A stretch of DNA of 63,076 nt, taken from the IMG/VR virus record IMGVR_UViG_3300025141_015636. One strand, 5' to 3'. Below the pieces are notes generated by a model. That model made no database searches. It was given only the letters and a program-made list of their open reading frames with translations, and was not told where the DNA came from. Of the stretch, positions 36,601-60,751 are shown piece after piece (positions within the stretch are counted from its first letter, which is position 1; the number at the start of each line of letters is the position of its first letter). Origin of the DNA: an uncultured virus (IMG/VR IMGVR_UViG_3300025141_015636) (taxonomy: Duplodnaviria; Heunggongvirae; Uroviricota; Caudoviricetes). The translations under genes and the position numbers were made by a program.

Positions 36601-38365
36601 TATTGGAAAAGGTTTAAGAAAGCAAGTCAGTGGTGAAGATGATATAACTGTCACAGATCCAGACGAATATCTTCCAATTCTTGGAATAGATGCGAGAAAA
36701 AACGAAGTTAGATCATTTGAGCAGCTTGTCGACTACATGATTAAAAATCCAAATGATGTATTTTTAAAAGCACTTGCTATTAGTCCACAAGGCGGCCAGA
36801 TAATGCCTGATACATTTGACAGATATGTTGGTAGACCACAAATGTCTGATCAAAATGAAATCGCATTTTCGTATATTAGAAATGCAATTGGGGATTCAAG
36901 CCTGCAAAAAGAGAACTATAAGAAATCAATTAGAAATATAGTAAGAAGAATTCTTTCAGAGGGCACAGATTCGCCTTCTGACTTTCCCTTTGTTAAAATT
37001 GTGTGGTCAGAAAAGCTAAAAATATTCTCTTCTGGAAAATGGAATCTCTGGAATGAAAGAGCATCTGCAACTGCTGACGGGGGGAAAGATCCCGAAGGCG
37101 CAGAGAAAGCAGTTGCAGCTATGGAAAATCTAATATATCTAGGTCATGAAGGATACGCGGTTGCATCCCAGGAAGATGGCGGTGTCCTTATCCAGGGAAA
37201 GGGAATAAATGCAAAGCTTGATCCCGATGAGGCAGTAGAATATATTATAGGAATTAGAACATCTTCAGAGTCTGAAGATCAAAGATTGCCAGACGTAAGA
37301 ATTAGACACGTTGCAGGTACAAAACCCTATGATCTTGAGCTTGCTTCAACAGGTGAAGCACTTGAGGTTAAGAAGATGGGAAGTAGAAATAAGCTTTCAA
37401 AGCTAGGCTCTGCAACTGGAAGGCTTTTTGACAGGCATGTCAAGATCATAAGACCTTTAAGATCTGCTGGGCAAATTGCACAAAGGTTCATAGAAGAAGG
37501 ATCAGTAGTAGACGAAGATGGTGTCGCTATAATTAGGCAAATAAATTCTGCTCCGGATAGCTTCGAAATAAACGATGTTGCAGACGCTGTTGAAATAATA
37601 GATTATTTTTTCAATAAGATACGATTTGGAAATTCTGCAAAAGAACTTCCAGGTGTTATGATTAAAGTTGAAGGCGGTCAGATAGGTGCTGGAATGGCAA
37701 GAAGGATTAAAATGGGAGATCTTTTGAACATTGAAGATCACGGAAATTTATTTGAAATTTGCAAGAAAGCTCTAAATAGTACACTCGGAGAATATTCACC
37801 TGCAAAAGAAAGATCGAAAGATAGATCTTCTGATAGTGTAGACGTTAAAGCATTTGCTGGTCCAGTTGATTATGAGGGAAAAGTTTCACTAGATTATTTT
37901 TATGATGAATTGATTTATAAACTATTTGACAGTGATTCTGATTCAAGCGAAATAGACGAAGATCTAATAACTTCTTACACAAAATCTGTTGAGCTCATTG
38001 CAGATATTTTCGGGCATCTTATAAAAATAAATGAAAGTCAGGGTTCTGATGTCTTTGATGATTTCATATCAGATCTTCACTATGGAGGTTTTTATGGTGT
38101 TGCACAAGACCATTACTATTCTGTACCGTGTGATTCTAAGCACCTTGATGTATACGGAACGACGCAAGGGTTCAGGGCAGTTCTTGAAATGAGAGAGATG
38201 CCCCCAGCTGGCCCTTCAATTCCAGATGTAAAGATTAAAAATGTACCCGAAGAAGAAGAGGTGGATCTTGAGATAGATCTGGAAAATGAAGATCCTGACG
38301 ACACAACACAGGACAAGGGCGAAGATGATAGGTTAGAAATAGAGGATCAACAAGGTGATACCTGA
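33632..38365 (+). CDS. 1577-aa multidomain protein: cytidylyltransferase-like + ligase-like (KxDG) + Pol-beta NTase + PD-(D/E)xK-like
   Basis: GGFKPFTTGH; EEKMDGQN, VEGVVLR, RKLTG; PVGS...GDIDILV...YQVDV; PYDLELASTGEALEVKK. Confidence 0.65.
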   Translation: MKLGLYGGGFKPFTTGHFAKLADAIRDNDKVILFYGIQQQEPPEFYKRSNKKKGIKAGDRRPPRQDFRKIGDTGREYNENIGSKVFKVYEKAFERIPEIEIIPVYSQDIDQDFDKKMTPLNQIFKVLDKFAANPALYEKVSIYGDRESLPRFINYSPIQSLKDSGKIQFGGAIPSSPSDYEGEAFEALMAAGEKEAQSALRDYYLKMDQDISDEELSGRQAIRGTDVRMHASTEAGAEEAMRFLPPFLSQDEKMEIIRILQGEVEREVENVQETFILPIITDSTILRAAARFEVQKSRKSRLVESSSTKKGEDHILGFTEDMNLTFENLRSIINDVFWGRIEHIEEKMDGQNFTFTVNDNGELRVFGKGVSATTLDKGGKNLSDIESAYSGKENLLDAFSSAYSVVEKYILGKDIDTIRRLFKNGRVVVEGQIMTPINPNTIPYTENHVRFVRPFTPDNIDIDQEAYSDIFEDTDIEIQDKKGRSWSFGPVPKLEQTQVDAEEISSKISELESDIENLISGISPPPKTVGDYASYAMESYIENVAPEISLEMLTPDQKRRALERLATGNKSLIGKREIGDSWSEFQKFEKLRTAHVAAAIADLEKIIQKLGTYFFDTLEFALATNEDVVSDLAAEVEKIKRAREADQIVIKNADSGDISDLIDTSWATKLDSSLARVEQMDMFKKAVEGVVLRMPDENGQQIVRKLTGMFTPIHRLVSLFKYPDRYSRQVLSIEDEQQDLTQDERAAINEILSSVLRKINEGGNAFKDSEGNIVTSSEKIPRDVANRILSDLKVNLLDPLGLKFEPVGSTDDSREGRPEAWQPSRMLGDIDILVELPDTLVGETEDQRQQYRDPSLQGLDKKERQKRKSRQRKIERGLASDTHRKDALYVALRNHSYLSDEIVKGVPRVIDSSDGSRILVQDKDTGELYQVDVDLKDSDRSFDDERWERSGGGHGTAKGLYRNLLLSFIAKLKSQEETADLGKNVKITLAIGKGLRKQVSGEDDITVTDPDEYLPILGIDARKNEVRSFEQLVDYMIKNPNDVFLKALAISPQGGQIMPDTFDRYVGRPQMSDQNEIAFSYIRNAIGDSSLQKENYKKSIRNIVRRILSEGTDSPSDFPFVKIVWSEKLKIFSSGKWNLWNERASATADGGKDPEGAEKAVAAMENLIYLGHEGYAVASQEDGGVLIQGKGINAKLDPDEAVEYIIGIRTSSESEDQRLPDVRIRHVAGTKPYDLELASTGEALEVKKMGSRNKLSKLGSATGRLFDRHVKIIRPLRSAGQIAQRFIEEGSVVDEDGVAIIRQINSAPDSFEINDVADAVEIIDYFFNKIRFGNSAKELPGVMIKVEGGQIGAGMARRIKMGDLLNIEDHGNLFEICKKALNSTLGEYSPAKERSKDRSSDSVDVKAFAGPVDYEGKVSLDYFYDELIYKLFDSDSDSSEIDEDLITSYTKSVELIADIFGHLIKINESQGSDVFDDFISDLHYGGFYGVAQDHYYSVPCDSKHLDVYGTTQGFRAVLEMREMPPAGPSIPDVKIKNVPEEEEVDLEIDLENEDPDDTTQDKGEDDRLEIEDQQGDT

Positions 38366-41241: not shown

Positions 41242-42825
41242 TTGGAATCAAAAATTATAAACTTTGATACAAGCTCGAGGAAAGAGCTTCTCGAGGGAGT
41301 TAAAATTTTATCTGATGCAGTATCAGTAACAATGGGTCCGAAAGGAATGAATGTTGTTATAGAAAATCCTGGATCACACCCGATTATTACAAAAGACGGA
41401 GTTACAGTTGCAAAAGCAATCTCCCTAAAGGATGGATTTAAAAATTTGGGAGTTGAAATAGTCAAAGAGGCAGCATCAAGAACCGCAGAAACTGCTGGAG
41501 ATGGAACAACAACAGCAACTGTTCTTGCGCATTCAATATTTTCAGAAGGGTTAAAAATGATGTCTGCTGGTCATACATCAAGAGATATAATAAATGGAAT
41601 AAAATCTTGCGAAAGAGATCTTATTGAAAACATACTTTCTTTTTCAAAAGAAGTCTCAAGTGCTTCTGACATTATGCAAGTTGCAACTATATCAGCAAAC
41701 GGAGAGGAAAAGATAGGAAATCTTATAACAGAAGCGATTAGCGAGCTTGGTATCAACGGAGTTGTAACTGTAGAAGATGCAAAAGGATTTGAAAGTGATT
41801 TAGTAGTAGTAAAGGGAATGCAATTAAACAGAGGTTATCTTTCACCATACTTTGTTAATAATAGTGAAAAAATGATAGCTGAGCTTGACAATCCTAGAAT
41901 CTTTATTTGTAATAAAAAGATTAACAGTATTCACGAAATATCATCAGTTCTAGAAGAATCGCTTCAGTCATCACAACCAGTTTTAATAATTTCAAATGAT
42001 ATAGATAACGAGGCAATGCAAGGTTTAGTTATAAACTCTACAAAGGGAAATCTAAAAGTTTGTGCAATAAAATCACCCGGATTTGGAAATGCAAGAGTTG
42101 GAATGATGGAAGATTTGTCTATGATCGTTGGGACAAAAATATATTCAAGCGGAGATGAAGAGGAGATAAGAAATATTACAATGTCAGATCTTGGTACATG
42201 CTCTAGGGTAATAGTAACTAGATCTGATACAACTTTTATAGGAAGCAGTGTTCCAAAAGATGAGATAGAAAAAAGATCCAAAAGTATAGAAGAAGCACTT
42301 TCAAATCCAAGATTGTCAGATGATGAAAGACAGGTTCTTAGAGTTAGATTATCAAGACTTGCCGGAGGTGTTGGAATTATAAGAGTCGGCGGGGCAACAG
42401 AGGGTGAAGTAATAGAGCGAAAGGATAGGGTTGATGATGCTTTAAATGCAACACAAGCTGCAATTGAAGAGGGCGTTGTGCCAGGAGGTGGGGTTACACT
42501 TCTTAGAGCATCAAAGAAAATATTGCTAAAAAACTATCCAGAGCTACAAAGAGCAGGTGTAACAGCACTTAAGAATTCCTGTCAATTTCCAATAAGAAAT
42601 ATTGTAAAGAACTCAGGTGGAATTCCAGATTTGGTTATTTCAAATATTCTAAAAAATAGATCAGATTCGTATGGATTCAACGCTTCCATTGGTATATATT
42701 GTGATATGTTTGAGTCTGGAATTATTGATCCTGCAAAGGTTACAAGACAGGCAGTTGAAAATGCTGTTTCATGTGCATGCACACTGCTTTCTGCTGGATG
42801 TGCAATGATTAATGAAGTTGATTGA
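41242..42825 (+). CDS. groEL: Chaperonin GroEL
   Basis: TMGPKG, ITKDGVTVAK, AGDGTTTATV, RGYLSPYF, EEGVVPGGG, GIIDPAKV. Confidence 0.95.
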   Translation: MESKIINFDTSSRKELLEGVKILSDAVSVTMGPKGMNVVIENPGSHPIITKDGVTVAKAISLKDGFKNLGVEIVKEAASRTAETAGDGTTTATVLAHSIFSEGLKMMSAGHTSRDIINGIKSCERDLIENILSFSKEVSSASDIMQVATISANGEEKIGNLITEAISELGINGVVTVEDAKGFESDLVVVKGMQLNRGYLSPYFVNNSEKMIAELDNPRIFICNKKINSIHEISSVLEESLQSSQPVLIISNDIDNEAMQGLVINSTKGNLKVCAIKSPGFGNARVGMMEDLSMIVGTKIYSSGDEEEIRNITMSDLGTCSRVIVTRSDTTFIGSSVPKDEIEKRSKSIEEALSNPRLSDDERQVLRVRLSRLAGGVGIIRVGGATEGEVIERKDRVDDALNATQAAIEEGVVPGGGVTLLRASKKILLKNYPELQRAGVTALKNSCQFPIRNIVKNSGGIPDLVISNILKNRSDSYGFNASIGIYCDMFESGIIDPAKVTRQAVENAVSCACTLLSAGCAMINEVD

Positions 42826-43693: not shown

Positions 43694-44443
43694 ATGGCAA
43701 GTTCGTTAGACGTATACATGAAAGATGCAGGTCGTAGAAAACTTTTAACAAGAGAGGAGGAGGTTATACTTTCAAAGAAAATTGAAAGTGGAGATAAAAA
43801 TGCTCGAGATATAATGATTGAGTCAAATCTTCGTCTAGCTATTAGTATAGCAAAGATGTATTACAAGAGTGGCTGTAGTATGCAAGATCTTATTCAAGAA
43901 TCAAATATTGGATTGATGAAAGCAGTTGATCGATTTGACTGGCGAAGGGGTTTTAAATTTAGTACATACGCAAGCTGGTGGATTAGACAGTCTGTAAGTA
44001 GATATGTCTCAATGCATAAGACAACTGTTCGTGTACCATCTCATGCAGCAGCACTAGGCTGGAAAATTAAAAAGCTAATTGGTGAATATGAGCAGGAGAT
44101 GGGTGCAAGACCTACAAATGAAGAAATAGCAGAAGTATTAAATGTTACTCTTTCTCAGGTTGAATCTAGTATTGATGCAATGAGATTTAATAATATTCTA
44201 AGTATAGATGGTGGGTATGGAGATGATGACTCTGACAGAAGTCTTCTTGAATCAATTGAAGATGATAGAGGAAAACCAATTGACGATGAGCTTGACTTGC
44301 AAACAATAAGATGTGCAATTATAAACTCACTATCAAGACTTTCAAAGAGAGAGGAACAGGTAATTAGACTAAGATTTGGAATTTCAGAAGTTGATTCTGA
44401 AGAAGATTTTGAAATTGAAAATAAAAAGGAGAAAATCAAATGA
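43694..44443 (+). CDS. RNA polymerase sigma-70 factor (RpoD/RpoS-like regions 1.2-4)
   Basis: LLTREEE, ESNLRLAISIAK, GLMKAVDRFD, GFKFSTYASWWIRQ, LSKREEQVIRLRFG. Confidence 0.92.
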   Translation: MASSLDVYMKDAGRRKLLTREEEVILSKKIESGDKNARDIMIESNLRLAISIAKMYYKSGCSMQDLIQESNIGLMKAVDRFDWRRGFKFSTYASWWIRQSVSRYVSMHKTTVRVPSHAAALGWKIKKLIGEYEQEMGARPTNEEIAEVLNVTLSQVESSIDAMRFNNILSIDGGYGDDDSDRSLLESIEDDRGKPIDDELDLQTIRCAIINSLSRLSKREEQVIRLRFGISEVDSEEDFEIENKKEKIK

Positions 44444-46858: not shown

Positions 46859-47078
46859 TATAGGTACAGGATCTCTTGTTCTTCTAGACTCTGCTGCTTT
46901 TGTGTCTGCTGCTCTTGAATGGGATGGTAGCGAAAGTAGAACGGGTATTGTATTGGGTCTTTACAGCGCAAGAAAGATTTTTAATCTTGACACAGATGAT
47001 ACACTTTGTGAAGTTCTTCTAGATACAGGCGATATTGAGCTTCTTTACAAAGAAGATATGGAGATTATAAATGAGTAA
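46839..47078 (+). CDS. Hypothetical SH3/KOW-like protein
   Basis: GSLV...TGIVL...CEVL beta-barrel pattern. Confidence 0.45.
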   Translation: MRSTEPNIGTGSLVLLDSAAFVSAALEWDGSESRTGIVLGLYSARKIFNLDTDDTLCEVLLDTGDIELLYKEDMEIINE

Positions 47079-47517
47079 TAAAAGAAAGACCATAGTTGTG
47101 AGCGGTGGATTTGATCCTGTGCATGTTGGTCATCTAAGGATGATAAACGAAGCAGCTAGCTTTGGTGATGTTATAGTTGTTTTAAATACAGATGCGTGGC
47201 TAGTGAGAAAAAAGGGGTATGTGTTTATGAAATGGAATGACAGGGCAGAGATTCTCAAAAACTTTATGAACGTAACAGAAGTAATTCCCGCAAGAGACCA
47301 TGATAACACTGTGTGTGAATCACTAATAGATCTCAAAGAAGTTTTAGATTTGGACTACTTTGCAAACGGCGGAGATAGAAAGATTTCAAATACTCCTGAG
47401 ATGAAAGTATGTGAATCAATTGGCATAGAGATGGTGTGGAATATTGGTGGCGGAAAGATTAGAAGCAGTAGTGATCTTGTTTCTGCTTCTGAAAAAGCAA
47501 AGAGGACTGATGGATAA
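47071..47517 (+). CDS. Cytidylyltransferase-family nucleotidyltransferase (HxGH)
   Basis: SGGFDPVHVGH, FANGGDR, KIRSSS. Confidence 0.88.
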   Translation: MSNKRKTIVVSGGFDPVHVGHLRMINEAASFGDVIVVLNTDAWLVRKKGYVFMKWNDRAEILKNFMNVTEVIPARDHDNTVCESLIDLKEVLDLDYFANGGDRKISNTPEMKVCESIGIEMVWNIGGGKIRSSSDLVSASEKAKRTDG

Positions 47518-47734
47518 AATCAGATCTTCATTGTTAAAAAATAGATTTGTTAAAGTTATATCGTGGAGAGTTATCTCTGTATCCATTACAATGATTATTA
47601 TGTGGATATTTACGGGAAATGTAAGAGAAGCAACTAGCTTCACACTTTTTCTACACGCAATTTTGACAATTGCAAATTATTTTTTTGAAACTTTATGGGA
47701 AGAATTTTTAAAAAAATACAAGATTGATCGTTGA
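47510..47734 (+). CDS. DUF2061-like small membrane protein
   Basis: KVISWRVIS...YFFETLW. Confidence 0.65.
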   Translation: MDKIRSSLLKNRFVKVISWRVISVSITMIIMWIFTGNVREATSFTLFLHAILTIANYFFETLWEEFLKKYKIDR

Positions 47735-47786
47735 AATCCTATAGGTACTTATATAGCTAGAAAATTATGTAAGTACAAGGGGAGCA

Positions 47787-47945
47787 ATGAGGATCATAAA
47801 AACACGAAAGGCATTGACAATTCTTTCAGCTATAAGCTCTTTCTCTCTTTGTATGTGTATATTTTCAGGATTTCTAGTGGGCTCGTATATCTCATTTCTC
47901 TCACTTTTTCTTTGTGCACTTTCATTTGCAATTATTGATAGATAG
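47787..47945 (+). CDS. Small hydrophobic protein (absent from the ORF track)
   Basis: GGGGAG RBS; 52 aa with two hydrophobic stretches. Confidence 0.45.
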   Translation: MRIIKTRKALTILSAISSFSLCMCIFSGFLVGSYISFLSLFLCALSFAIIDR

Positions 47946-48091
47946 TTTGAAAAATAAAATTATAGAAGCATACACTAAAATAAGACAAATTCTTTCAATA
48001 GAAAGTCCGGAAATTTTTGCACTGTCTTTTTTAATTGCACTTTACATATGGTGGTGGGTAAAGGTGAATGGATAAAATATTTTTAAAAGAG

Positions 48092-48120
48092 TTGAACAAT
48101 TAATTTTTAAAAGTTATATT
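48092..48120 (+). promoter_or_regulatory. Sigma-70-type promoter for the noncoding RNA
   Basis: TTGAAC-17 bp-TATATT. Confidence 0.7.
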
Positions 48121-48131
48121 AGCTATAACTT

Positions 48132-48143
48132 CGCTCTTTAACA
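48132..48143 (+). promoter_or_regulatory. boxA antitermination element (NusB/NusE site)
   Basis: CGCTCTTTAACA, the boxA consensus, just after the predicted transcription start. Confidence 0.8.
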
Positions 48144-48144
48144 T

Positions 48145-48789
48145 TACAAATTGACCCTAGTTCTCGGGTCTATAAACTCAAATGGAATTACCGACCTTTG
48201 AGCACAATCAGCGAAAGCTGGTGATAGAGAAAACCTAGCTTAGGAGACGGGTGTTCTTACACCTCAAGGGCGACCTAACTAAGAGAGGGGATGAGTTAAG
48301 GAACGTGGTAGTTCTGAATATCATCCAGTGATTCGATGCATGAGCTTTCATACCGCTGGAAGAATACTGCTGAGAGTATCCGCGGACTTGTAGATTCATC
48401 GTGGAAACGGGATAAGGCCCACCAAGACGAAAGGCTTGGGAAGGGGGGATAAACGCCTCCAGAATCTAACTGTCGGTGATAGAAGTCTCTCTGGCGGAAT
48501 CGGAAACGAGACCGTCGTCCTGAAAGGGGCTATATGGACATCCTCCCAAGGTTTGGAAATATGGCGCGCAACTAAGAAGTGAAGTGTACAGCTCATTCAA
48601 TGGAACGCAGAATATCATAAGTCGACAGTAAGGCGTGCTGTTCCGTAGTCTTACGGCTAAGAACAGGGAGAAAGCTCGTGAACGGTGTTACTTACCGGTG
48701 TGCTTACATCTAACCCAAAGGGGACAGGCTCAAAAGGCTTGATGGTCATGAGCAGAGAGAATAGAAGTGCTAAATCTCTCTCATTTTTT
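48145..48789 (+). ncRNA. Large structured noncoding RNA (~640 nt), family unassigned; size class of ROOL/GOLLD/OLE
   Basis: No + strand ORF in the track; GC visibly higher than flanks; many hairpins, several GAAA tetraloops, long-range helices; promoter and boxA upstream, hairpin plus T tract downstream. Confidence 0.8.
48754..48789 (+). terminator. Terminator-like hairpin closing the ncRNA
   Basis: agagaga...tctctct stem followed by ca and six T. Confidence 0.6.
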
Positions 48790-48848
48790 AAATTAACATT
48801 GATATAAAATATCTCTTTCGAAAATATATATTTTACATAGGAGGGCAA

Positions 48849-49319
48849 ATGAGTCCTTGCTGGTTTACAGGTTCAGGAGAATCGATATCTCTAAAAGAGA
48901 TATTTCAAAATATTGATGAATATGCCGCGCGCGGCGGAAAAATTTTTATAGGTACAGATAGCCAGCTAAAAAATGAAGCATGTGTCTTTGCCACAGCAAT
49001 ATGTTTACATGGAGCGAAAGGAGAGGGCGGCGGAAAATACTTTGTTAAAAGGTTTTCAGATACATGCAATTCAAATTCAGTCCTAAGATTAAGAATGATG
49101 AAAGAGGTTCAGCACTCAGTCGATATAGGCTTGAGAGTTCTTGAAAGAAATCAGGATGCAGAGATAGAGTTACATATAGATGTAGGTTCAAGCCCAAGAT
49201 CAAAGACAAGAGGCTATGTTGATTATCTAAAAGGATGGGCAACAGCTGTTGGATTTCCGTGTAAAATAAAGCCCAATGCTTGGGCTTCTGCTTCGGTAGC
49301 AGATAAACATACAAAGTAG
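48849..49319 (+). CDS. RNase H-like YkuK (DUF458) family protein
   Basis: IFIGTDSQ, EVQHS, ELHIDVG, KIKPNAWASASVADKH. Confidence 0.85.
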   Translation: MSPCWFTGSGESISLKEIFQNIDEYAARGGKIFIGTDSQLKNEACVFATAICLHGAKGEGGGKYFVKRFSDTCNSNSVLRLRMMKEVQHSVDIGLRVLERNQDAEIELHIDVGSSPRSKTRGYVDYLKGWATAVGFPCKIKPNAWASASVADKHTK

Positions 49320-49482: not shown

Positions 49483-50088
49483 ATGATTAAGCTAATTGGC
49501 AAAGTTCCCAGCGATATTTATGTAGCCTGCAGTGGCGGTGCAGATTCAATGGCAGCACTTGATTTTCTCTCAAATAGTAAAAGAAAGATCACCGTTATCC
49601 ACTTTGATCATGGCACAGAGTATGGATCAATTGCAAGAAAAGTTGTTAGAAGCTATTGCGAAAGTTCAAAAATTGATATGGTTGTACATGAAATAAAAGG
49701 ATCTCCAGGAAAAAATGAATCACTTGAAGCGTGGTGGCGAGATCAGAGATATGAGGTTCTTAATAGTCTAGACAAGACTGTTGTGACTGGTCACAATCTA
49801 AATGATGTTGCAGAATGGTGGATTTTTACGTCACTTAGGGGAAACCCAAGATTAATGCCTCAATCAACTTTAAATGTTATCAAGCCATTTCTACTCACAG
49901 AGAAGAAAAGCTTGGAACTCTGGTGTGATAGAAATGATATTCAATATGCAATTGATCCATCAAATTTCGGAAATAGATTTTCACGATCTAAAATTAGACA
50001 GAAAATTATGCCGGAAGCTTTATCTATTAATCCAGGATTTTTAACTGTAATGTCAAAGAAAATTAAGGAGAGATTCTGTGAGACTTAA
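49483..50088 (+). CDS. tilS: tRNA(Ile)-lysidine synthase, catalytic PP-loop domain only
   Basis: VACSGGADS, HFDHG, RY, TGHNLND, DPSN, RSKIR. Confidence 0.8.
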   Translation: MIKLIGKVPSDIYVACSGGADSMAALDFLSNSKRKITVIHFDHGTEYGSIARKVVRSYCESSKIDMVVHEIKGSPGKNESLEAWWRDQRYEVLNSLDKTVVTGHNLNDVAEWWIFTSLRGNPRLMPQSTLNVIKPFLLTEKKSLELWCDRNDIQYAIDPSNFGNRFSRSKIRQKIMPEALSINPGFLTVMSKKIKERFCET

Positions 50089-51378: not shown

Positions 51379-51861
51379 ATGAGTGCAATTATTAGACGTT
51401 CTTTTCCTGCGAGAACATTAACAAAGCAGGAATTTCTAACACCATTCGATCGTATCTTTGATGATATGATTAATAATATGTTTCCAACATTTGCAAATGA
51501 TCTTGGAGAAGATTTTTTTGCCAGGGGATCTTATCCCAAGGTTAACGTAATTAACCATGACGATAAGATCACCATCGATGCGGCAATCCCGGGAATGAAG
51601 AGAAGTGATATCGATATACATGTGACTGATAGCGTTCTTACTATACAAGGGAATAGCAATCAAAGTAGCAATATTGAAGACAGTCAATATGTTAAGAGAG
51701 AGATTAAGCGATCCGGATTTAGACGATCATTTAAACTAGGGGATAATCTTGATGAAGATCAAGTAACTGCAAAGTTTGATAGCGGAATTTTAACACTTGA
51801 AATTCCAAAGGTGAAACCAGATAATATCGAACCAACAGTTAGAAAGATCGAGATCAAGTAA
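51379..51861 (+). CDS. Small heat-shock protein Hsp20
   Basis: YPKVNV, AIPG, FRRSF.L, AKFDSGILTLEIPK, RKIEI. Confidence 0.92.
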   Translation: MSAIIRRSFPARTLTKQEFLTPFDRIFDDMINNMFPTFANDLGEDFFARGSYPKVNVINHDDKITIDAAIPGMKRSDIDIHVTDSVLTIQGNSNQSSNIEDSQYVKREIKRSGFRRSFKLGDNLDEDQVTAKFDSGILTLEIPKVKPDNIEPTVRKIEIK

Positions 51862-51926: not shown

Positions 51927-53798
51927 ATGGGAAAAGTTATAGGAATAGATTTAGGAACAACGAACTCAGCAGTTGCTGTAATCGAAGGAAAGGAGCCAAA
52001 GGTTCTGACAAACGAAGAGGGCACACGAACGACTCCTTCAATTGTCGGATACACTAGCGACGGAGACAGGCTTGTAGGTGCGTCTGCACGGAGACAGGCT
52101 GTTACAAACCCTGAGAATACAATTTATTCTGCAAAGAGATTTATGGGAATGAAGTTCAACGAAGTAAAGTCAGAGCTTGAAAAAGTTCCATATAAAATAA
52201 TCAAGGGTGACGGGGGATCGTGTAAAATAGAAGCCGGCGGAAAGAAGCTATCGCCTCAAGAAATCAGCGCACAAGTTCTAATTAAACTAAAGAGATCTGC
52301 TGAGAGGTATCTTGGTCATGAGGTAACTGAGGCTGTAATTACAGTTCCTGCATACTTCAATGATAGTCAGAGGCAAGCAACAAAAGATGCGGGTAAAATT
52401 GCAGGACTTGATGTTAAGAGAATTATAAACGAGCCAACGGCGGCTGCTCTTGCTTACGGGCTTGACAAACAGGGCGAGAGAAACGTAGCTGTTTATGATC
52501 TTGGTGGTGGCACATTCGATATATCAATACTTGATATTTCTGACGGAGTTGTCGAAGTTTTAAGTACAAACGGAGATACACACCTTGGTGGAGATGATGT
52601 TGATCAGATACTCATAGATTGGATTCTGGGATCATTCAAATCAGATACTGGTATTGACCTATTCTCTGATAACATGGTGCTACAGAGGGTAAGAGAGGCA
52701 GCAGAGAAAGCAAAGATAGAGCTTTCAAGCGCTCAAAAGACAGATATCAACCTTCCATTCCTAACTGCTAATTCGACAGGGCCAAAGCATCTTGTTACAT
52801 CACTAACACGAGCTGATTTTGAAAAGATGATAGATGAATTTGTATCAAAGACAATGGTTCCAGTTAAGAAAGCTTTGAAGGACGCAAGTCTTAAAGTAGG
52901 CGATATTGATGAGGTTATACTTGTAGGTGGGTCTACGAGAATTCCGCAGGTTCGAGCAACAGTTGAAAAGTTCTTCAAAAAATCTGCAAACTCATCAGTG
53001 AATCCAGATGAAGTAGTTGCAATGGGTGCTGCTGTTCAGGGTGGTGTATTTTCGGGAGATGTTAACGATATACTGTTATTAGATGTTACACCTCTATCGC
53101 TAGGAATTGAGACACTTGGCGGTGTGATGACAAGACTAATAGACAGAAATACGACAATTCCTTGCTCTAAGAGTGAGACGTTTAGTACTGCTACTGATAA
53201 TCAACCTGCTGTTGATATCAATGTTTTACAAGGTGAGAGAGATTTTGCATCTGATAATAGAACACTTGGAAACTTTAAGCTAGACGGAATCCCACCTTCA
53301 CCGAGAGGTTTGCCACAGATTGAGGTTACCTTTGATATTGATGCAAATGGAATTGTTAGTGTTTCTGCAAAGGATAAGGCTACGGGCAAAGAGCAGTCAA
53401 TTACTATCACAGGCGGAGAATCTCTTAGCGATGAAGAGGTTGAATCAATGATTCACGATGCAGAAGCTAATGAGGAGGCTGATAAGATGAGGCGAGAGAT
53501 TATCGAGTCTCGAAATAAGCTTGATAGCCTTGTATATCAATCTGAAAAATTTGTAAGTGAGAATAGTGAAAAGGTATCGCCCGAATCAATTGAAAGTATT
53601 AATTCGCTCCTTCAGACAGCAAAAGAATCTTTGGATTCAGATGATGTAGACTCAATTAACTCATCTTTTGAATCTTTGCAAACTGCTCTACATGCTGCTG
53701 GATCTGAGTTGTATAGTCAAGCTTCACAGTCTCAAGATGATGTAGGTAAACAGACCGGCGATGAAGAAGTCGTAGATGTTGACCTTGACGAACAGTGA
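51927..53798 (+). CDS. dnaK: Chaperone DnaK (Hsp70)
   Basis: [44 protein letters not shown]. Confidence 0.97.
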
Positions 53799-58660: not shown

Positions 58661-59407
58661 ATGAAGCTAAATACAAAGACAAATACTATTGCTACTGGGA
58701 CAAATATTCTTGACGTCAAAATTCCAAAAAGGCTTCGAGAGAGACATAAGTGTGGAGTAAAATATTTTGATGATGCACTTGGGGGAAGAGGGTTTACACC
58801 GTCTATGGTAACATTATTTACTGGAACCCCGGGTGCAGGAAAAACAACAATGATGCTTGAAATAGCAAATAGCCTGACAAGAACAGGTGCATCAGTTCTT
58901 TTTAATACAGCAGAAGAATCTCTATTTCAACTAAAACTCACAGTTGAAAGACTTAATTTGAGAAATGGATTTTTTGCAGGAGAGGAGTCTTATGTTCCCG
59001 AGCTTATTAAAAATTGTGATAAAATTAGAGAGGAAAATCCCAAGAAACCATTCTTTTTAATTGTTGATAGTCTACAGACTTTAAATGATGGAAAGTACGG
59101 AAATAATACTAATAGCAAAACTGCAGAACGATCACTTCAGATAATTACAGAATACTGCAAAGAGAACTTTTGTAATGCAATTATTATTGGGCAAGTTACA
59201 AAGTCCGGAAAGATGGCAGGGGCAAATGTATTAAAGCATATGGTTGATTCTTTAATTACATTAGATGTTGAGAGAAAAGATGAAGATCTAATGGGATGCA
59301 GAATTCTCTGCGTTGAAAAAAATAGATTTGGTGGGGCAGGGCATATATTCTTTCTCTCCTTGCAGCAAAAAGGATTTACAGAAGTAAGCAGGGTTAGTCT
59401 TTCATAA
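58661..59407 (+). CDS. RadA/Sms-like RecA-fold ATPase (core domain only)
   Basis: GTPGAGKTT, AEES, VDSLQ, QVTKSG.MAG...LKHMVD, KNRFG. Confidence 0.85.
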   Translation: MKLNTKTNTIATGTNILDVKIPKRLRERHKCGVKYFDDALGGRGFTPSMVTLFTGTPGAGKTTMMLEIANSLTRTGASVLFNTAEESLFQLKLTVERLNLRNGFFAGEESYVPELIKNCDKIREENPKKPFFLIVDSLQTLNDGKYGNNTNSKTAERSLQIITEYCKENFCNAIIIGQVTKSGKMAGANVLKHMVDSLITLDVERKDEDLMGCRILCVEKNRFGGAGHIFFLSLQQKGFTEVSRVSLS

Positions 59408-59443
59408 GTTAACGAATATACATTATATGTGTAATATTTCTTT

Positions 59444-59668
59444 ATGGAAAACTACATGTATACAATGGATCAAGAAGAGCTTTCTGATATTGCCGGGATA
59501 ATAATTTCGCTTAACAATCTAGATCTCTACGAGATGTGGATAAAGATTCAGCATGAATTTTCATCAGAAAATGTTATTGATATATTTTTCTTTCTATGCG
59601 AAAATAATAAGATAGATGATCTAATTAAATCTAAGAGATTTTATGATGATAAGTTTAGAGATATTTGA
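59444..59668 (+). CDS. Hypothetical protein
   Basis: 74-aa ORF. Confidence 0.45.
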   Translation: MENYMYTMDQEELSDIAGIIISLNNLDLYEMWIKIQHEFSSENVIDIFFFLCENNKIDDLIKSKRFYDDKFRDI

Positions 59669-59695
59669 CTATGTATTATATGGGAGGCATTTAAA

Positions 59696-59953
59696 ATGAA
59701 TGACCCGTTGCTAGATAACATTCTTAATAGTTCGTCTGAATTTATTTCACATGAGCCCACATATATCCTTAGTGGGTCTGGATGGTCATGGTTTTATGAC
59801 CCCGATGAGAGAACTATGGTTCCAGTACTTCGAGGAATCGAATGTTTTATAGACGATCTTCCAAAAGAAGAAGATTCAAAGATAACAATATACACATCAA
59901 AGAGAAGAATAGTTGTTAAAAAAGAAGATGTCATAGAGGTCGGCTGGAATTAA
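59696..59953 (+). CDS. Hypothetical protein
   Basis: GGGAGG RBS. Confidence 0.6.
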   Translation: MNDPLLDNILNSSSEFISHEPTYILSGSGWSWFYDPDERTMVPVLRGIECFIDDLPKEEDSKITIYTSKRRIVVKKEDVIEVGWN

Positions 59954-60055
59954 GTTGTATTTTTTTATATCTTAGTGTTCACAGTGGCTGAGTTTTATTA
60001 AGAGCGATAATTTTGATTCATTTTTTCCATATGTAATATTATGGAGGTTTGAATT

Positions 60056-60751
60056 ATGTCTATATTTGCTATGTTATCTTTTCTTTTTTTTGCATCACCG
60101 GCTGCCTTAGCTGAACCTACTATTTCTGCTGTAGATCTGAGGCAAGAACCTATTCATAATGTTTTTGAAAGAACATTTCGAAATGTAAGTGAATCAGTTG
60201 TTGAAGTAAGGCGAAGCGATATATCAGGATATGGTACAGGGACACTGTTTAAAGTTGATGGAAATAGCTTTGCGCTCACAGCTGCACATGTTGTTAGAGG
60301 TACGAGCTCAGCCCTTATAGTAAAAGATGGAATATCTGTAGAGGGTCAAGTTGTATACTATAGCGAAGAAACTGATATTGCTGTGATATCTGTTCCCGAG
60401 GGTCCTGTTTCAAGTTCATCAATGAGATTAAGAATAAGATCTAGTTCAATATCTACAGGTGAAAGAACAGGATATTGCGGATTTCCAAATAGAACTGATT
60501 TGGCATGTTATTCAGGAAGAGTATCAAGAGTTGCTGAAGGAGTGATTAATATTCATTCATATGCATGGATGGGAGCATCGGGATCACTCGTTCTTGATTC
60601 AAGAGGTAGAGCTGTTGGAATATTAAGTGCAGTAGAAACAGGATTTGTATTTGGTCTACCACAACTTATAGAGGATGTTGTATGGGCCAGGCCTTTTGAT
60701 GAAAGCTTCATGCAGGCATACAGAGATGGATTTCAGCAATCAACAAATTAG
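60056..60751 (+). CDS. Exported trypsin-like serine protease
   Basis: Signal peptide; GTG, LTAAHV, DIAV, GASGS triad motifs. Confidence 0.88.
   Translation: MSIFAMLSFLFFASPAALAEPTISAVDLRQEPIHNVFERTFRNVSESVVEVRRSDISGYGTGTLFKVDGNSFALTAAHVVRGTSSALIVKDGISVEGQVVYYSEETDIAVISVPEGPVSSSSMRLRIRSSSISTGERTGYCGFPNRTDLACYSGRVSRVAEGVINIHSYAWMGASGSLVLDSRGRAVGILSAVETGFVFGLPQLIEDVVWARPFDESFMQAYRDGFQQSTN

What the first reader, a model, noticed from the sequence alone, without database searches (positions are those of the whole stretch)
48092..48789. Stand-alone ~640-nt ornate noncoding RNA gene in an otherwise wall-to-wall coding phage genome
Seen: this is the only long gap without a credible ORF, and it is clearly more GC-rich than its flanks. 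It is bracketed by TTGAAC-17-TATATT (48092-48120) and a hairpin plus T tract (48754-48789). Hairpins found by eye: gaccc/gggtc 48153-48170; ctcaaa/tttgag 48177-48202; atcagc-GAAA-gctggt 48207-48222; ggtgt/acacc 48250-48263; tccagtg/cgctgga 48324-48360; tcg-GAAA-cga inside ggcgg/ccgtc 48493-48516; gtcct-GAAA-ggggc 48517-48530; ctgttc/gaacag 48638-48666. Long-range helices close multiloop domains: tagattc 48391-48397 with gaatcta 48462-48468, and ctgtcg-g-tgata 48470-48481 with tatca...cgacag 48613-48628. G-U pairs and GAAA loops on the + strand indicate the sense. Known: phages carry large structured RNAs of unknown function (GOLLD, ROOL). Inference: this is a member of such a class or a new one. 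I cannot assign the family by eye.
Basis: partly seen in the sequence, partly recalled or inferred. Interest (0 to 1): 0.9.

Follow-up and report, generated by a model that had tools for sequence, protein, structure and literature searches.

The report
New giant structured phage RNA gene
This gap holds a real gene for a roughly 660-base, intricately folded noncoding RNA of a family not in the public RNA catalogue, shared by very large marine phages, where it usually sits among their transfer-RNA genes.

Summary
Window 48132-48789 (+) is a GC-rich (0.49 against 0.28-0.36 in the flanks), ORF-poor stretch encoding a structured RNA. I collected homologs from IMG/VR, JGI metagenome and GTDB contigs. 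On 27 sequences (65-98% pairwise identity) a 183-pair, 33-helix structure is 97.3% paired. 98 pairs carry compensatory double changes, against 52.9 in shuffles (0 of 500 reach the observed value) and 23-35 in slid controls. Three long-range pairings are supported: two pseudoknots and one kissing loop. No Rfam 15 family matches, including GOLLD, ROOL, OLE, RNase P, tmRNA and introns, neither in the window nor in 19 homolog loci. Carriers include phage contigs of 185-293 kb, one copy each. tRNA genes lie in the held flank of 20 of 38 loci, and all 57 are on the RNA's strand; a tRNA(CAT) directly precedes the RNA in 7 loci. The window's copy stands alone, with a promoter-like site and a hairpin plus U tract. 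Contigs from three marine metatranscriptome studies cover it. Best reading: a new family of large ornate phage RNA, occupying the same genomic niche as GOLLD and ROOL but not homologous to either. Its biochemical role is inferred, not shown.

The parts
48092..48120 (+). Promoter-like site TTGAAC-17-TATATT. The inferred transcript start lies a few bases before 48132.
   Evidence: Scores 9 of 12 consensus positions, which is not exceptional in this AT-rich stretch. In 12 other loci that lack a directly adjacent upstream tRNA, TATAAT-like boxes lie about 7-14 nt before the conserved 5' block, and TTGAAC recurs in L010, L009, L020 and L049 (A4). The transcript start itself is inferred.
48132..48789 (+). 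The RNA gene, about 660 nt. This is the span homologous to all full-length relatives.
   Evidence: Homology runs 48132-48791 against L010 and over similar spans in 21 full-length loci. The structure has 183 pairs, 97.3% paired, with 98 pairs showing double changes.
48135..48230 (+). 5' domain. P1 (48135-48139 with 48226-48230) encloses P2 (48153-48170), P3 (48177-48202) and P4/P5 (48203-48223, GAAA loop).
   Evidence: P3 has double changes in 8 of 8 pairs. P1 and P2 are conserved with little variation, so P1 is tentative.
48234..48288 (+). P6/P7/P8 domain. The P8 loop UCUU is invariant.
   Evidence: helices 6-8: 11 of 15 pairs have double changes. Loop UCUU is present in 27 of 27 sequences.
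48289..48326 (+). P9/P10 hairpin. The P10 loop is GUGGUA (48305-48310).
   Evidence: helices 9-10: 8 of 11 pairs have double changes.
48331..48377 (+). P11/P12/P13 arm. The P13 loop is UACCGC (48351-48356).
   Evidence: helices 11-13: 9 of 14 pairs have double changes.
48305..48356 (+). Kissing loop between the P10 loop (48305-48310) and the P13 loop (48351-48356).
   Evidence: Five pairs are standard in 27 of 27 sequences. One pair switches U-A to A-U in 4 of 27 (L041, L045, L053, L058). The sixth pair is kept in 23 of 27.
48379..48468 (+). P14 (48379-48385 with 48399-48405), pseudoknot PK1 (48391-48397 with 48462-48468), variable arm P16 (48408-48438) and P17 (48443-48460).
   Evidence: Helix 14 has 4 of 7 pairs with double changes. 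Helix 15 (PK1) is 99.5% paired with 2 of 7 covarying. Helix 17 has 4 of 4. P16 carries inserts in L020, L059, L041, L045 and L053. Variant contigs diverge at 48417-48456 (table 7).
48469..48629 (+). Central multi-stem domain, closed by P18/P19 (48469-48481 with 48613-48629). It holds P20 (GAAA loop), P21 (GAAA loop), P22-P24 and P25-P26.
   Evidence: helices 18-26: 27 of 50 pairs have double changes. This is the most conserved part; the 22-nt anchor at 48496-48517 lies here.
48585..48590 (+). Tip of P26: the self-complementary hexamer UGUACA.
   Evidence: GUAC is present in 27 of 27 sequences and UGUACA in 26 of 27. Reading it as a symmetric intermolecular contact is inference only.
48634..48670 (+). 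P27, a long hairpin. The outer stem is invariant and the tip covaries.
   Evidence: helix 27: 8 pairs never vary and 4 have double changes.
48674..48753 (+). 3' junction domain, closed by P28 (48674-48683 with 48744-48753). It holds P29, P31 and P32.
   Evidence: helices 28, 29, 31 and 32: 7 of 21 pairs have double changes.
48700..48770 (+). Pseudoknot PK2: GUGCUU (48700-48705) pairs with AAGUGC (48765-48770), which lies in the loop of the terminal hairpin.
   Evidence: helix 30. All 6 pairs are standard in 27 of 27 sequences. Three pairs show double changes, in three different sequence combinations (L041/L045/L053, L058 and L046).
48755..48789 (+). Terminal hairpin P33 (48755-48759 with 48776-48780), with a conserved 16-nt loop, followed by the U tract at 48784-48789.
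   Evidence: helix 33: 4 of 5 pairs have double changes. The loop is conserved. A T run follows in most homologs. A terminator role is inferred.

Best explanation
SHOWN. Window 48132-48789 (+) is a gene for a noncoding RNA of about 660 nt. It folds into some 33 helices around several multi-stem junctions, locked by two pseudoknots and a kissing loop. It belongs to a family that no Rfam 15 model detects. The family occurs once per genome in large marine phage contigs (185-293 kb, one of them complete). There it is typically embedded, co-oriented, in tRNA gene arrays, often starting 2-10 nt after the encoded CCA of a tRNA with anticodon CAT and sometimes ending 5-16 nt before the next tRNA. In this window the array is absent, and the gene has its own promoter-like site and a hairpin with a U tract.

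INFERRED. In arrays the RNA is made as part of the tRNA precursor and released by the tRNA-processing enzymes. Here it is made as its own transcript. It acts in trans as a stable, compact RNA particle during infection, in the manner of GOLLD and ROOL, the two known giant phage RNAs of tRNA islands. My odds, given that it is a real trans-acting RNA:
- about 45%: it forms an RNA-only higher-order assembly like theirs;
- about 25%: it binds or shields a component of the host or phage translation or tRNA machinery;
- about 15%: it is catalytic;
- the rest: something else.
For: Homologs:
- A 22-nt anchor gave 3 IMG/VR loci and 27 metagenome loci.
- A second anchor gave 19 IMG/VR loci, of which 8 are true homologs by nhmmer.
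- A gapped pattern gave 2 GTDB contigs, both true homologs.

Structure on A3 (27 sequences, aligned by MAFFT and not fitted to any structure):
- 183 pairs, 97.3% paired against 89.9% in shuffles.
- 98 pairs with double changes against 52.9 in shuffles (0 of 500 shuffles reach the observed value) and 23-35 with partners slid by 1-3 columns.
- Covariation score 0.345 against at most 0.089 in the slid controls (the first version is; RNAalifold on 22 sequences is).

Tertiary pairings.

Strand:
- 13.5% of paired cells are G-U. Pairing falls to 84.4% if the pairs are read on the - strand.
- 57 of 57 flanking tRNAs are on the RNA's strand.

Not coding:
- Variable columns show no 3-base period (0.62, 0.62, 0.64).
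- 6 of the 7 validly tested window ORFs stay open in only 1-5 of 27 sequences.

Not a known family.

Conservation: RNA identity to carriers is 73-85% at the nucleotide level with one copy each. The GroEL protein of the same genomes is 46-54% identical.

RNA libraries: contigs of 3 metatranscriptome runs from 3 studies lie on 48150-48790, with 102, 127 and 121 contigs laid at 80% likeness or more. By word share, 8 RNA runs of 4 studies hold part of it.

Analogy: GOLLD and ROOL lie near tRNAs in phages and prophages and form nanocages. Some of their covarying 'tertiary' kissing loops turned out to be bridges between subunits, and some symmetric bridges are palindromic loops (passages). Here an invariant palindromic loop, UGUACA, exists.
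Against: - No transcript ends, strand or abundance were measured. All laid runs are contigs, and DNA can be present in RNA libraries.
- The oligomer idea rests on analogy and on one invariant palindromic loop. A 6-nt palindrome among about 17 loops is not very improbable by chance, and because it never varies it cannot covary.
- The three long-range pairings can all be drawn within one molecule.
- There is no sequence or model similarity to GOLLD or ROOL.
- No tRNA was found in 18 of 38 loci, including the window's whole 63 kb. Many of those loci hold very little flank.
- The compensatory changes in PK1, PK2 and the kissing loop come mostly from one divergent subclade, so they represent few independent events.
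- One minus-strand ORF (48466-48618) stays open in 20 of 27 sequences. It lies in the most conserved, strongly covarying part.
- The single-sequence folding z-score is only -2.34.
Confidence: 0.7

Rival explanations
1. It binds or shields translation components, acting as a decoy or sponge. It would sequester a host factor (ribosome, RNase, RNA chaperone) or protect phage tRNAs from host tRNA-cutting defences, as part of the phage's tRNA island.
For: Placement on the same strand inside tRNA arrays. A PP-loop (TilS-like) gene lies within 0.7-5 kb of the RNA in the window, G003, G004, G005 and L059. Passages of the cryo-EM preprint mention GOLLD binding ribosomes in pull-downs. Many loops are invariant.
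Against: No partner has been identified. I looked for no complementarity to tRNA or rRNA beyond the idea that the UGGU of the P10 loop might bind a CCA end, and that loop is instead explained by the kissing loop. Clustering with tRNA-related genes may only reflect a shared expression module.
Confidence: 0.15
2. It is a ribozyme, for example one that processes or modifies tRNA precursors or processes itself out of the array.
For: Size, several multi-stem junctions, pseudoknots and many invariant unpaired nucleotides. It directly abuts tRNAs.
Against: No match to RNase P, to group I or II introns, or to any self-cleaving class in Rfam 15. Host RNase P and RNase Z would suffice for release. ROOL, GOLLD and OLE have similar complexity, and in the passages I read their function is described as unknown, with no catalysis reported.
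Confidence: 0.08
3. It is a very divergent member of GOLLD or ROOL that the Rfam models miss.
For: Same niche: phage, tRNA islands. The GOLLD env-38 RNA came from a marine sample and lies downstream of a Met-tRNA (passage). Size is comparable to ROOL, which averages 581 nt (passage).
Against: There is no hit even at E up to 10 on the window or at E up to 5 and 1 on 19 homolog loci. The GOLLD model's only hit in 3 carrier genomes is a 17-nt, 5.7-bit match elsewhere in the genome. ROOL gave no hit in 5 carriers, though no positive control rang for ROOL. GOLLD has a conserved 3' half and a variable 5' half; this RNA is conserved along its whole length.
Confidence: 0.04
4. It is a cis-acting leader, a degraded or short protein-coding gene, or a mobile intron-like element.
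For: An RNase H-like gene (PF04308) starts 58 nt downstream in the window, and a homolog lies next to the RNA in G005 and L059. ORF 48466-48618 (-) is open in 20 of 27 sequences.
Against: The neighbours differ between loci: asparagine synthase and FKBP in L010, tRNAs in most others. In G005 and L059 the PF04308 gene is upstream of the RNA, not downstream. There is no codon periodicity, and the other ORFs are broken. No intron or retroelement model matches. The flanking tRNAs are intact.
Confidence: 0.03

Closest known systems
GOLLD RNA (Rfam RF02032)
   Same: A large ornate RNA of phages and prophages, often next to tRNA genes. One studied member is marine and lies downstream of a Met-tRNA (passages). 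Long-range pairings supported by covariation. High structural complexity.
   Different: No match to the covariance model. About 660 nt rather than often more than 800. Conserved along its whole length rather than only in the 3' half. Quaternary structure is unknown here.
ROOL RNA (Rfam RF03087)
   Same: Similar size (ROOL averages 581 nt). Several multi-stem junctions and pseudoknots. Found in phages and prophages near tRNAs (passages).
   Different: No match to the covariance model. This family was found only in marine metagenome and viral contigs here, whereas ROOL was first found in cow rumen data (passage). Two pseudoknots plus one kissing loop were detected so far, against three pseudoknots and six junctions described for ROOL.
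OLE RNA (Rfam RF01071; accession recalled, not checked here)
   Same: An ornate RNA of about 600 nt with a highly conserved structure. It forms an RNA-only dimer (passages).
   Different: OLE is a chromosomal RNA of Bacillota with protein partners (abstract listing of PMC12054373), not a phage RNA of tRNA islands. It gave no Rfam match here.

Membership tests
GOLLD (RF02032) | Match to the Rfam covariance model at or above 150 bits | tested here: not met
   No GOLLD row in the window at the gathering threshold or at E up to 10, nor in 12 + 7 homolog loci. In 3 carrier genomes the only hit is 5.7 bits over 17 nt, elsewhere in the genome.
GOLLD (RF02032) | Conserved 3' region with a less conserved 5' region; many members over 800 nt (passage) | tested here: not met
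   About 660 nt. Conserved blocks are spread along the whole length.
GOLLD (RF02032) | Encoded in phages or prophages, often near tRNA islands | tested here: met
   Carrier contigs of 185-293 kb are classed as viral. 20 of 38 loci hold tRNAs, and 57 of 57 tRNAs are co-oriented with the RNA.
GOLLD / ROOL | Self-assembly into an RNA-only nanocage (14-mer for GOLLD, 8-mer for ROOL) | not testable with these tools
   No RNA 3D or assembly predictor is available. The only hint is the invariant palindromic loop UGUACA.
ROOL (RF03087) | Match to the Rfam covariance model at or above 99.1 bits | tested here: not met
   No ROOL row. No hit in 5 carrier genomes at E up to 10. No control genome rang in that call, so the search had no positive control.
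ROOL (RF03087) | About 580 nt, six multi-stem junctions, three pseudoknots (passage) | tested here: inconclusive
   Comparable complexity: 33 helices, several junctions, two pseudoknots plus one kissing loop. The topologies were not compared, because I did not see the ROOL consensus drawing.
Bacterial RNase P RNA | Match to the RNase P models with the conserved P4 core | tested here: not met
   No RNase P row at E up to 10 or in the homolog loci.
tmRNA | tRNA-like domain plus tag reading frame | tested here: not met
   ARAGORN finds no tmRNA in the window or in 38 loci. No Rfam tmRNA row.
Group I / group II introns | Match to the intron models; interrupted host gene; reverse transcriptase or homing endonuclease often present | tested here: not met
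   No intron rows. group-II-D1D4-1 (RF01998) gave no hit in 3 carrier genomes. The adjacent tRNAs are complete.

The most novel reading that the evidence does not exclude
This is a third, marine class of phage-encoded giant RNA that assembles without protein into a symmetric multimer or cage. On this reading the invariant palindromic loop UGUACA (48585-48590) and one or more of the covarying long-range pairings (PK1, PK2, or the P10-P13 loop pairing) act as bridges between subunits. The RNA would be made together with phage tRNAs and would be among the abundant viral RNAs in seawater.
Probability: 0.3. Interest if true: 0.9.

Novelty: new variant of a known kind. Interest (0 to 1): 0.8.

Why it matters
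Only two families of giant ornate phage RNAs of tRNA islands are known, GOLLD and ROOL. Their function is still unknown even though both were recently shown to form RNA-only nanocages. An unrelated third family with the same genomic habit would show that this habit arose repeatedly. That points to a general phage need linked to tRNA expression.

It would also give a fresh target, with strong covariation support, for cryo-EM and for functional work. The family has many natural variants in marine metagenomes, and contigs from marine RNA libraries cover it. Expression, ends and ecology can therefore be studied directly in existing data. It also breaks metagenome assemblies of large phages, which matters for recovering viral genomes.

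Tried and rejected
**Routes that found no homolog**
- Neighbour-protein route. Relatives of the RNase H-like and PP-loop proteins in IMG/VR are only 38-45% identical (1 and 4 loci). They carry no homolog of the RNA by nhmmer on the loci or by BLAST on their whole records. All 5 of those records are incomplete (3-71%), so absence is not shown.
- An exact 38-nt scan of IMG/VR found nothing. It included positions that vary in the family.
- GenBank phages (INPHARED): no match to the window's RNA, to 20 kb around it, or to two divergent homologs.

**Errors of mine**
- I recalled a wrong Rfam number for GOLLD. RF01998 is group-II-D1D4-1. I corrected this.
- My first all-against-all covariation filter was far too loose (4637 pairs) and I discarded it. 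A stem-based scan replaced it.
- In one search the row for 48657-48790 (-) is invalid, because I cut the ORF out of frame.

**Structural ideas dropped**
- The small hairpin at 48697-48710, the pair between alignment columns 10 and 723, and three other weak pair sets were removed from the structure. Pair 704-712 was removed by hand.
- The idea that UGGU in the P10 loop binds tRNA CCA ends was dropped once that loop was found to pair with the P13 loop.

**Read-laying results that cannot be used as evidence**
- The three RNA runs have almost no cover on the flanks. X8 has none. X9 and X18 have depth 0.24-3.2 in 2-3 bins near 47000-47504.
Most of the contigs also come from other variants with different flanks.

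**Literature**
- PMC10690425 reports candidate structured RNAs from IMG/VR that are only 29-151 nt long (passages).
- Its searchable supplements hold neither the 22-nt anchor nor six carrier sample numbers. Two large files could not be searched, so pieces of this RNA may be listed there.
- One search was rejected for term syntax and rerun.
Full report
**What is at the site**

Window 48100-48800 is the GC peak of its neighbourhood. GC is 0.490-0.497 in 300-nt windows over 48200-48649, against 0.283-0.300 just upstream and 0.357 downstream. No ORF longer than 66 aa overlaps it.

It lies in the longest stretch of the window free of ORFs of 90 aa or more (47734-48849). A second such stretch at 59407-60056 is filled by + strand ORFs of 74 and 85 aa.

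The surrounding 63 kb looks like a large phage. It encodes a head maturation protease, endolysins, DnaB, ribonucleotide reductase, Pol III alpha, GroEL, a sigma-70 factor, Hsp20 and DnaK.

The promoter-like TTGAAC-17-TATATT (48092-48120) exists but is a weak, common kind of match. The 3' hairpin and T tract exist. Folding the single sequence gives z = -2.34 on + and -1.39 on -, which is suggestive only.

**Known families**

- Rfam 15 gives nothing in the whole window at gathering thresholds.
- It gives nothing relevant at E up to 10 in 47900-49000.
- ARAGORN finds no tRNA or tmRNA in the window.

**Finding relatives**

- GenBank phages hold nothing similar.
- Relatives of the neighbouring proteins in IMG/VR are distant and carry no such RNA.
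- The sequencing-run index listed 20 runs of 16 studies, all marine or seawater by label, that hold part of the stretch. Eight of them are RNA runs.
- Laying four runs (three RNA, one DNA) showed 102, 127, 121 and 195 contigs on 48150-48790 at 80-100% likeness. Many variant letters, small indels and variants skip or replace single arms.
- In the DNA run, two long contigs identical to the window stop at 48203 and resume at 48723. Only shorter variant contigs lie between them. The element therefore exists in many versions in one community.
- That table showed which stretches stay constant. From it I took a 22-nt anchor (48496-48517), which gave 3 IMG/VR loci on contigs of 236, 242 and 293 kb, 27 metagenome loci (L028 is identical to the window) and no GTDB contig.
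- A second anchor gave 19 IMG/VR loci, of which 8 are true homologs by nhmmer.
- A gapped pattern gave 2 GTDB contigs, both true homologs: a 306-kb contig in a MAG labelled Methylococcaceae and a 14-kb contig in a Flavobacteriales MAG.
- Homology to the window spans 48132-48791.

**Structure**

Alignment A3 holds 27 sequences, with pairwise identity of 0.65 minimum and 0.79 median. I left out:
- the identical or near-identical rows L015, L016, L018, L028, L052 and L055;
- the eight partial loci L008, L009, L011, L025, L029, L032, L035 and L042.

The alignment was made by MAFFT without reference to any structure.

- The RNAalifold consensus gave 185 pairs, 97.2% paired, with 93 pairs showing double changes.
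- I removed a few weak pairs and added two pseudoknots. The refined structure has 183 pairs in 33 helices and is 97.3% paired, against 89.9% in shuffles.
- 98 pairs have changes on both sides, against 52.9 +/- 3.5 in shuffles (0 of 500 shuffles reach the observed value) and 23-35 when partners are slid by 1-3 columns.
- The covariation score is 0.345, against at most 0.089 in the slid controls. An earlier run on 22 sequences gave 57 of 163 pairs with compensatory changes.

Helices in window coordinates are listed. Three long-range pairings are supported:
- PK1, 48391-48397 with 48462-48468. It is 99.5% paired, and 2 pairs covary.
- PK2, 48700-48705 with 48765-48770. It joins the loop of the terminal hairpin to the 3' junction. 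All 6 pairs are standard in 27 of 27 sequences, and 3 pairs covary in three different combinations.
- A kissing loop between the P10 loop and the P13 loop. Five pairs are standard in 27 of 27 sequences, and one U-A to A-U switch occurs in 4 sequences.

Most compensatory changes in these three come from one divergent subclade, so they count as few independent events.

**Sense and coding**

- 13.5% of paired cells are G-U. The same pairs read on the minus strand would be only 84.4% standard.
- All 57 tRNAs found beside the RNA are on its strand.
- Variable columns show no three-base period (0.62, 0.62, 0.64).
- Of the 7 validly tested window ORFs, 6 stay open in only 1-5 of 27 sequences. The exception, 48466-48618 (-), is open in 20 of 27 and lies in the most conserved, strongly covarying part.

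**Context**

- Of 38 loci scanned, 20 hold at least one tRNA in the held flank (17 of 29, 3 of 9). Rfam adds a cut-off tRNA at the end of L049.
- In 7 loci a tRNA with anticodon CAT and an encoded CCA ends 2-10 nt before the conserved 5' block: L013, L015, L027, L024, L026, L031 and L037. L015 and L027 are identical in the RNA.
- In L015/L027, L024, L034 and L037 another tRNA starts 5-16 nt after the RNA.
- Loci without an adjacent upstream tRNA, including the window, carry TATAAT-like boxes 7-14 nt upstream. Several also carry TTGAAC (A4).
- Each of 5 carrier records holds one copy, 73-85% identical to the window. Their GroEL proteins are 46-54% identical to the window's. The RNA is therefore far better conserved than the proteins.
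- Protein neighbours vary: asparagine synthase and FKBP in L010. An RNase H-like PF04308 gene is adjacent in the window, G005 and L059. A PP-loop (TilS-like) gene lies within 0.7-5 kb in the window, G003, G004, G005 and L059.

**Comparison with what is known**

- No Rfam family matches the RNA in 12 homolog loci at E up to 5, or in 7 more divergent ones at E up to 1. Only the flanking tRNAs and sub-threshold noise appear.
- The GOLLD model finds nothing relevant in 3 carrier genomes.
- The ROOL model finds nothing in 5 carrier genomes, but no control rang for it.
- Passages of PMC5737381 and of the cryo-EM preprint 10.1101/2024.12.08.627333 describe both GOLLD and ROOL as large RNAs of phages and prophages, often near tRNAs and of unknown function, that form RNA-only nanocages.
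- The same passages report that one GOLLD came from a marine sample and lies downstream of a Met-tRNA. They also report that several covarying 'tertiary' kissing loops proved to be bridges between subunits, and that some symmetric bridges are palindromic loops.
- The present RNA shares the niche and the complexity but not the sequence or the model. It also has an invariant self-complementary loop, UGUACA (26 of 27 sequences; GUAC in 27 of 27).
- I therefore file it as a new family of the same kind, not as a member of either.

**Literature**

Seven full-text searches turned up no description of a roughly 650-nt RNA of marine large phages. I read passages of:
- PMC10690425;
- PMC12619734;
- PMC9123017;
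- 10.64898/2026.09.22.753630.

PMC10690425 lists candidates of only 29-151 nt from IMG/VR. Two of its supplementary files could not be searched, so fragments of this RNA might be listed there. Subscription papers are outside the library.

**How it most likely works**

Shown:
- a conserved, highly structured + strand RNA gene;
- one copy per genome in large marine phage contigs;
- co-orientation with tRNA genes, which it often abuts;
- presence in contigs of RNA libraries from three studies.

Inferred:
- co-transcription with tRNAs, and release by RNase P and the 3' tRNA-processing enzymes;
- an own promoter and terminator in this window;
- a trans-acting role as a compact particle.

Whether it multimerises like GOLLD and ROOL (my leading guess, about 45% given a trans-acting RNA), binds translation or tRNA factors, or is catalytic cannot be decided with these tools.

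Noticed in passing
L013, L015/L027, L024, L026, L031, L037 (tRNA just upstream of the RNA); window 49483-50088: The tRNA that directly precedes the RNA has anticodon CAT and is not initiator-like in its first base pair. Every carrier genome checked encodes a PP-loop (TilS-like) protein, often within 5 kb of the RNA. The tRNA may be the lysidine-modified tRNA-Ile2 rather than tRNA-Met, which would fit an AT-rich phage.
   Followed up: partly
window 48203 and 48723; L008 and L009 contig ends: Assemblies break at this RNA. In the DNA run, the window's own contigs stop at 48203 and restart at 48723. Two IMG/VR contigs of 236 and 242 kb end inside the RNA. Co-occurring variants of a conserved element seem to tangle the assembly graph.
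   Followed up: partly
L058 (306-kb contig) and L059 (14-kb contig): The only two GTDB contigs with the RNA sit in MAGs labelled Methylococcaceae and Flavobacteriales. They carry phage-like content: a GroEL 47% identical to the window's on the 306-kb contig, and PF04308, PP-loop and tRNA genes on the 14-kb one. They may be phage contigs binned with cells.
   Followed up: partly
window 48849-49319; G005 37796-38254; L059 3957-4427: An RNase H-like protein (PF04308) lies next to the RNA in three genomes, downstream in the window and upstream in the other two. In three other carriers it lies 7-200 kb away, so the link is loose.
   Followed up: partly
window 47787-47945 and 47914-48075: Two overlapping small + strand ORFs (52 and 53 aa), without Pfam hits, fill the AT-rich stretch just upstream of the RNA's promoter-like site. 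Whether they are genes is unknown.
   Followed up: no
window 41242-42825, 43694-44443, 51379-51861, 51927-53798: The phage carries its own GroEL, a sigma-70 family factor, Hsp20 and DnaK. A 2025 paper (PMC12619734, passages) describes freshwater 'moraphages' with DnaK, DnaJ and Hsp20 and predicted Bacteroidota hosts. Any relation to this phage was not tested.
   Followed up: no
window 48408-48438 (arm P16): This arm is the family's variable site. Some relatives carry an extra GC-rich hairpin of about 15-20 nt there (L020, L059, L041, L045, L053). Variant contigs in all four laid runs diverge at 48417 and rejoin near 48456.
   Followed up: partly
window 48254-48259, 48648-48654, 48687-48693: Three hairpin tips share a similar motif: UCUUAC, UCUUAC and ACUUAC. 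The UCUU loop of P8 is invariant in 27 of 27 sequences. This may be a repeated recognition element, but the reason is unknown.
   Followed up: no
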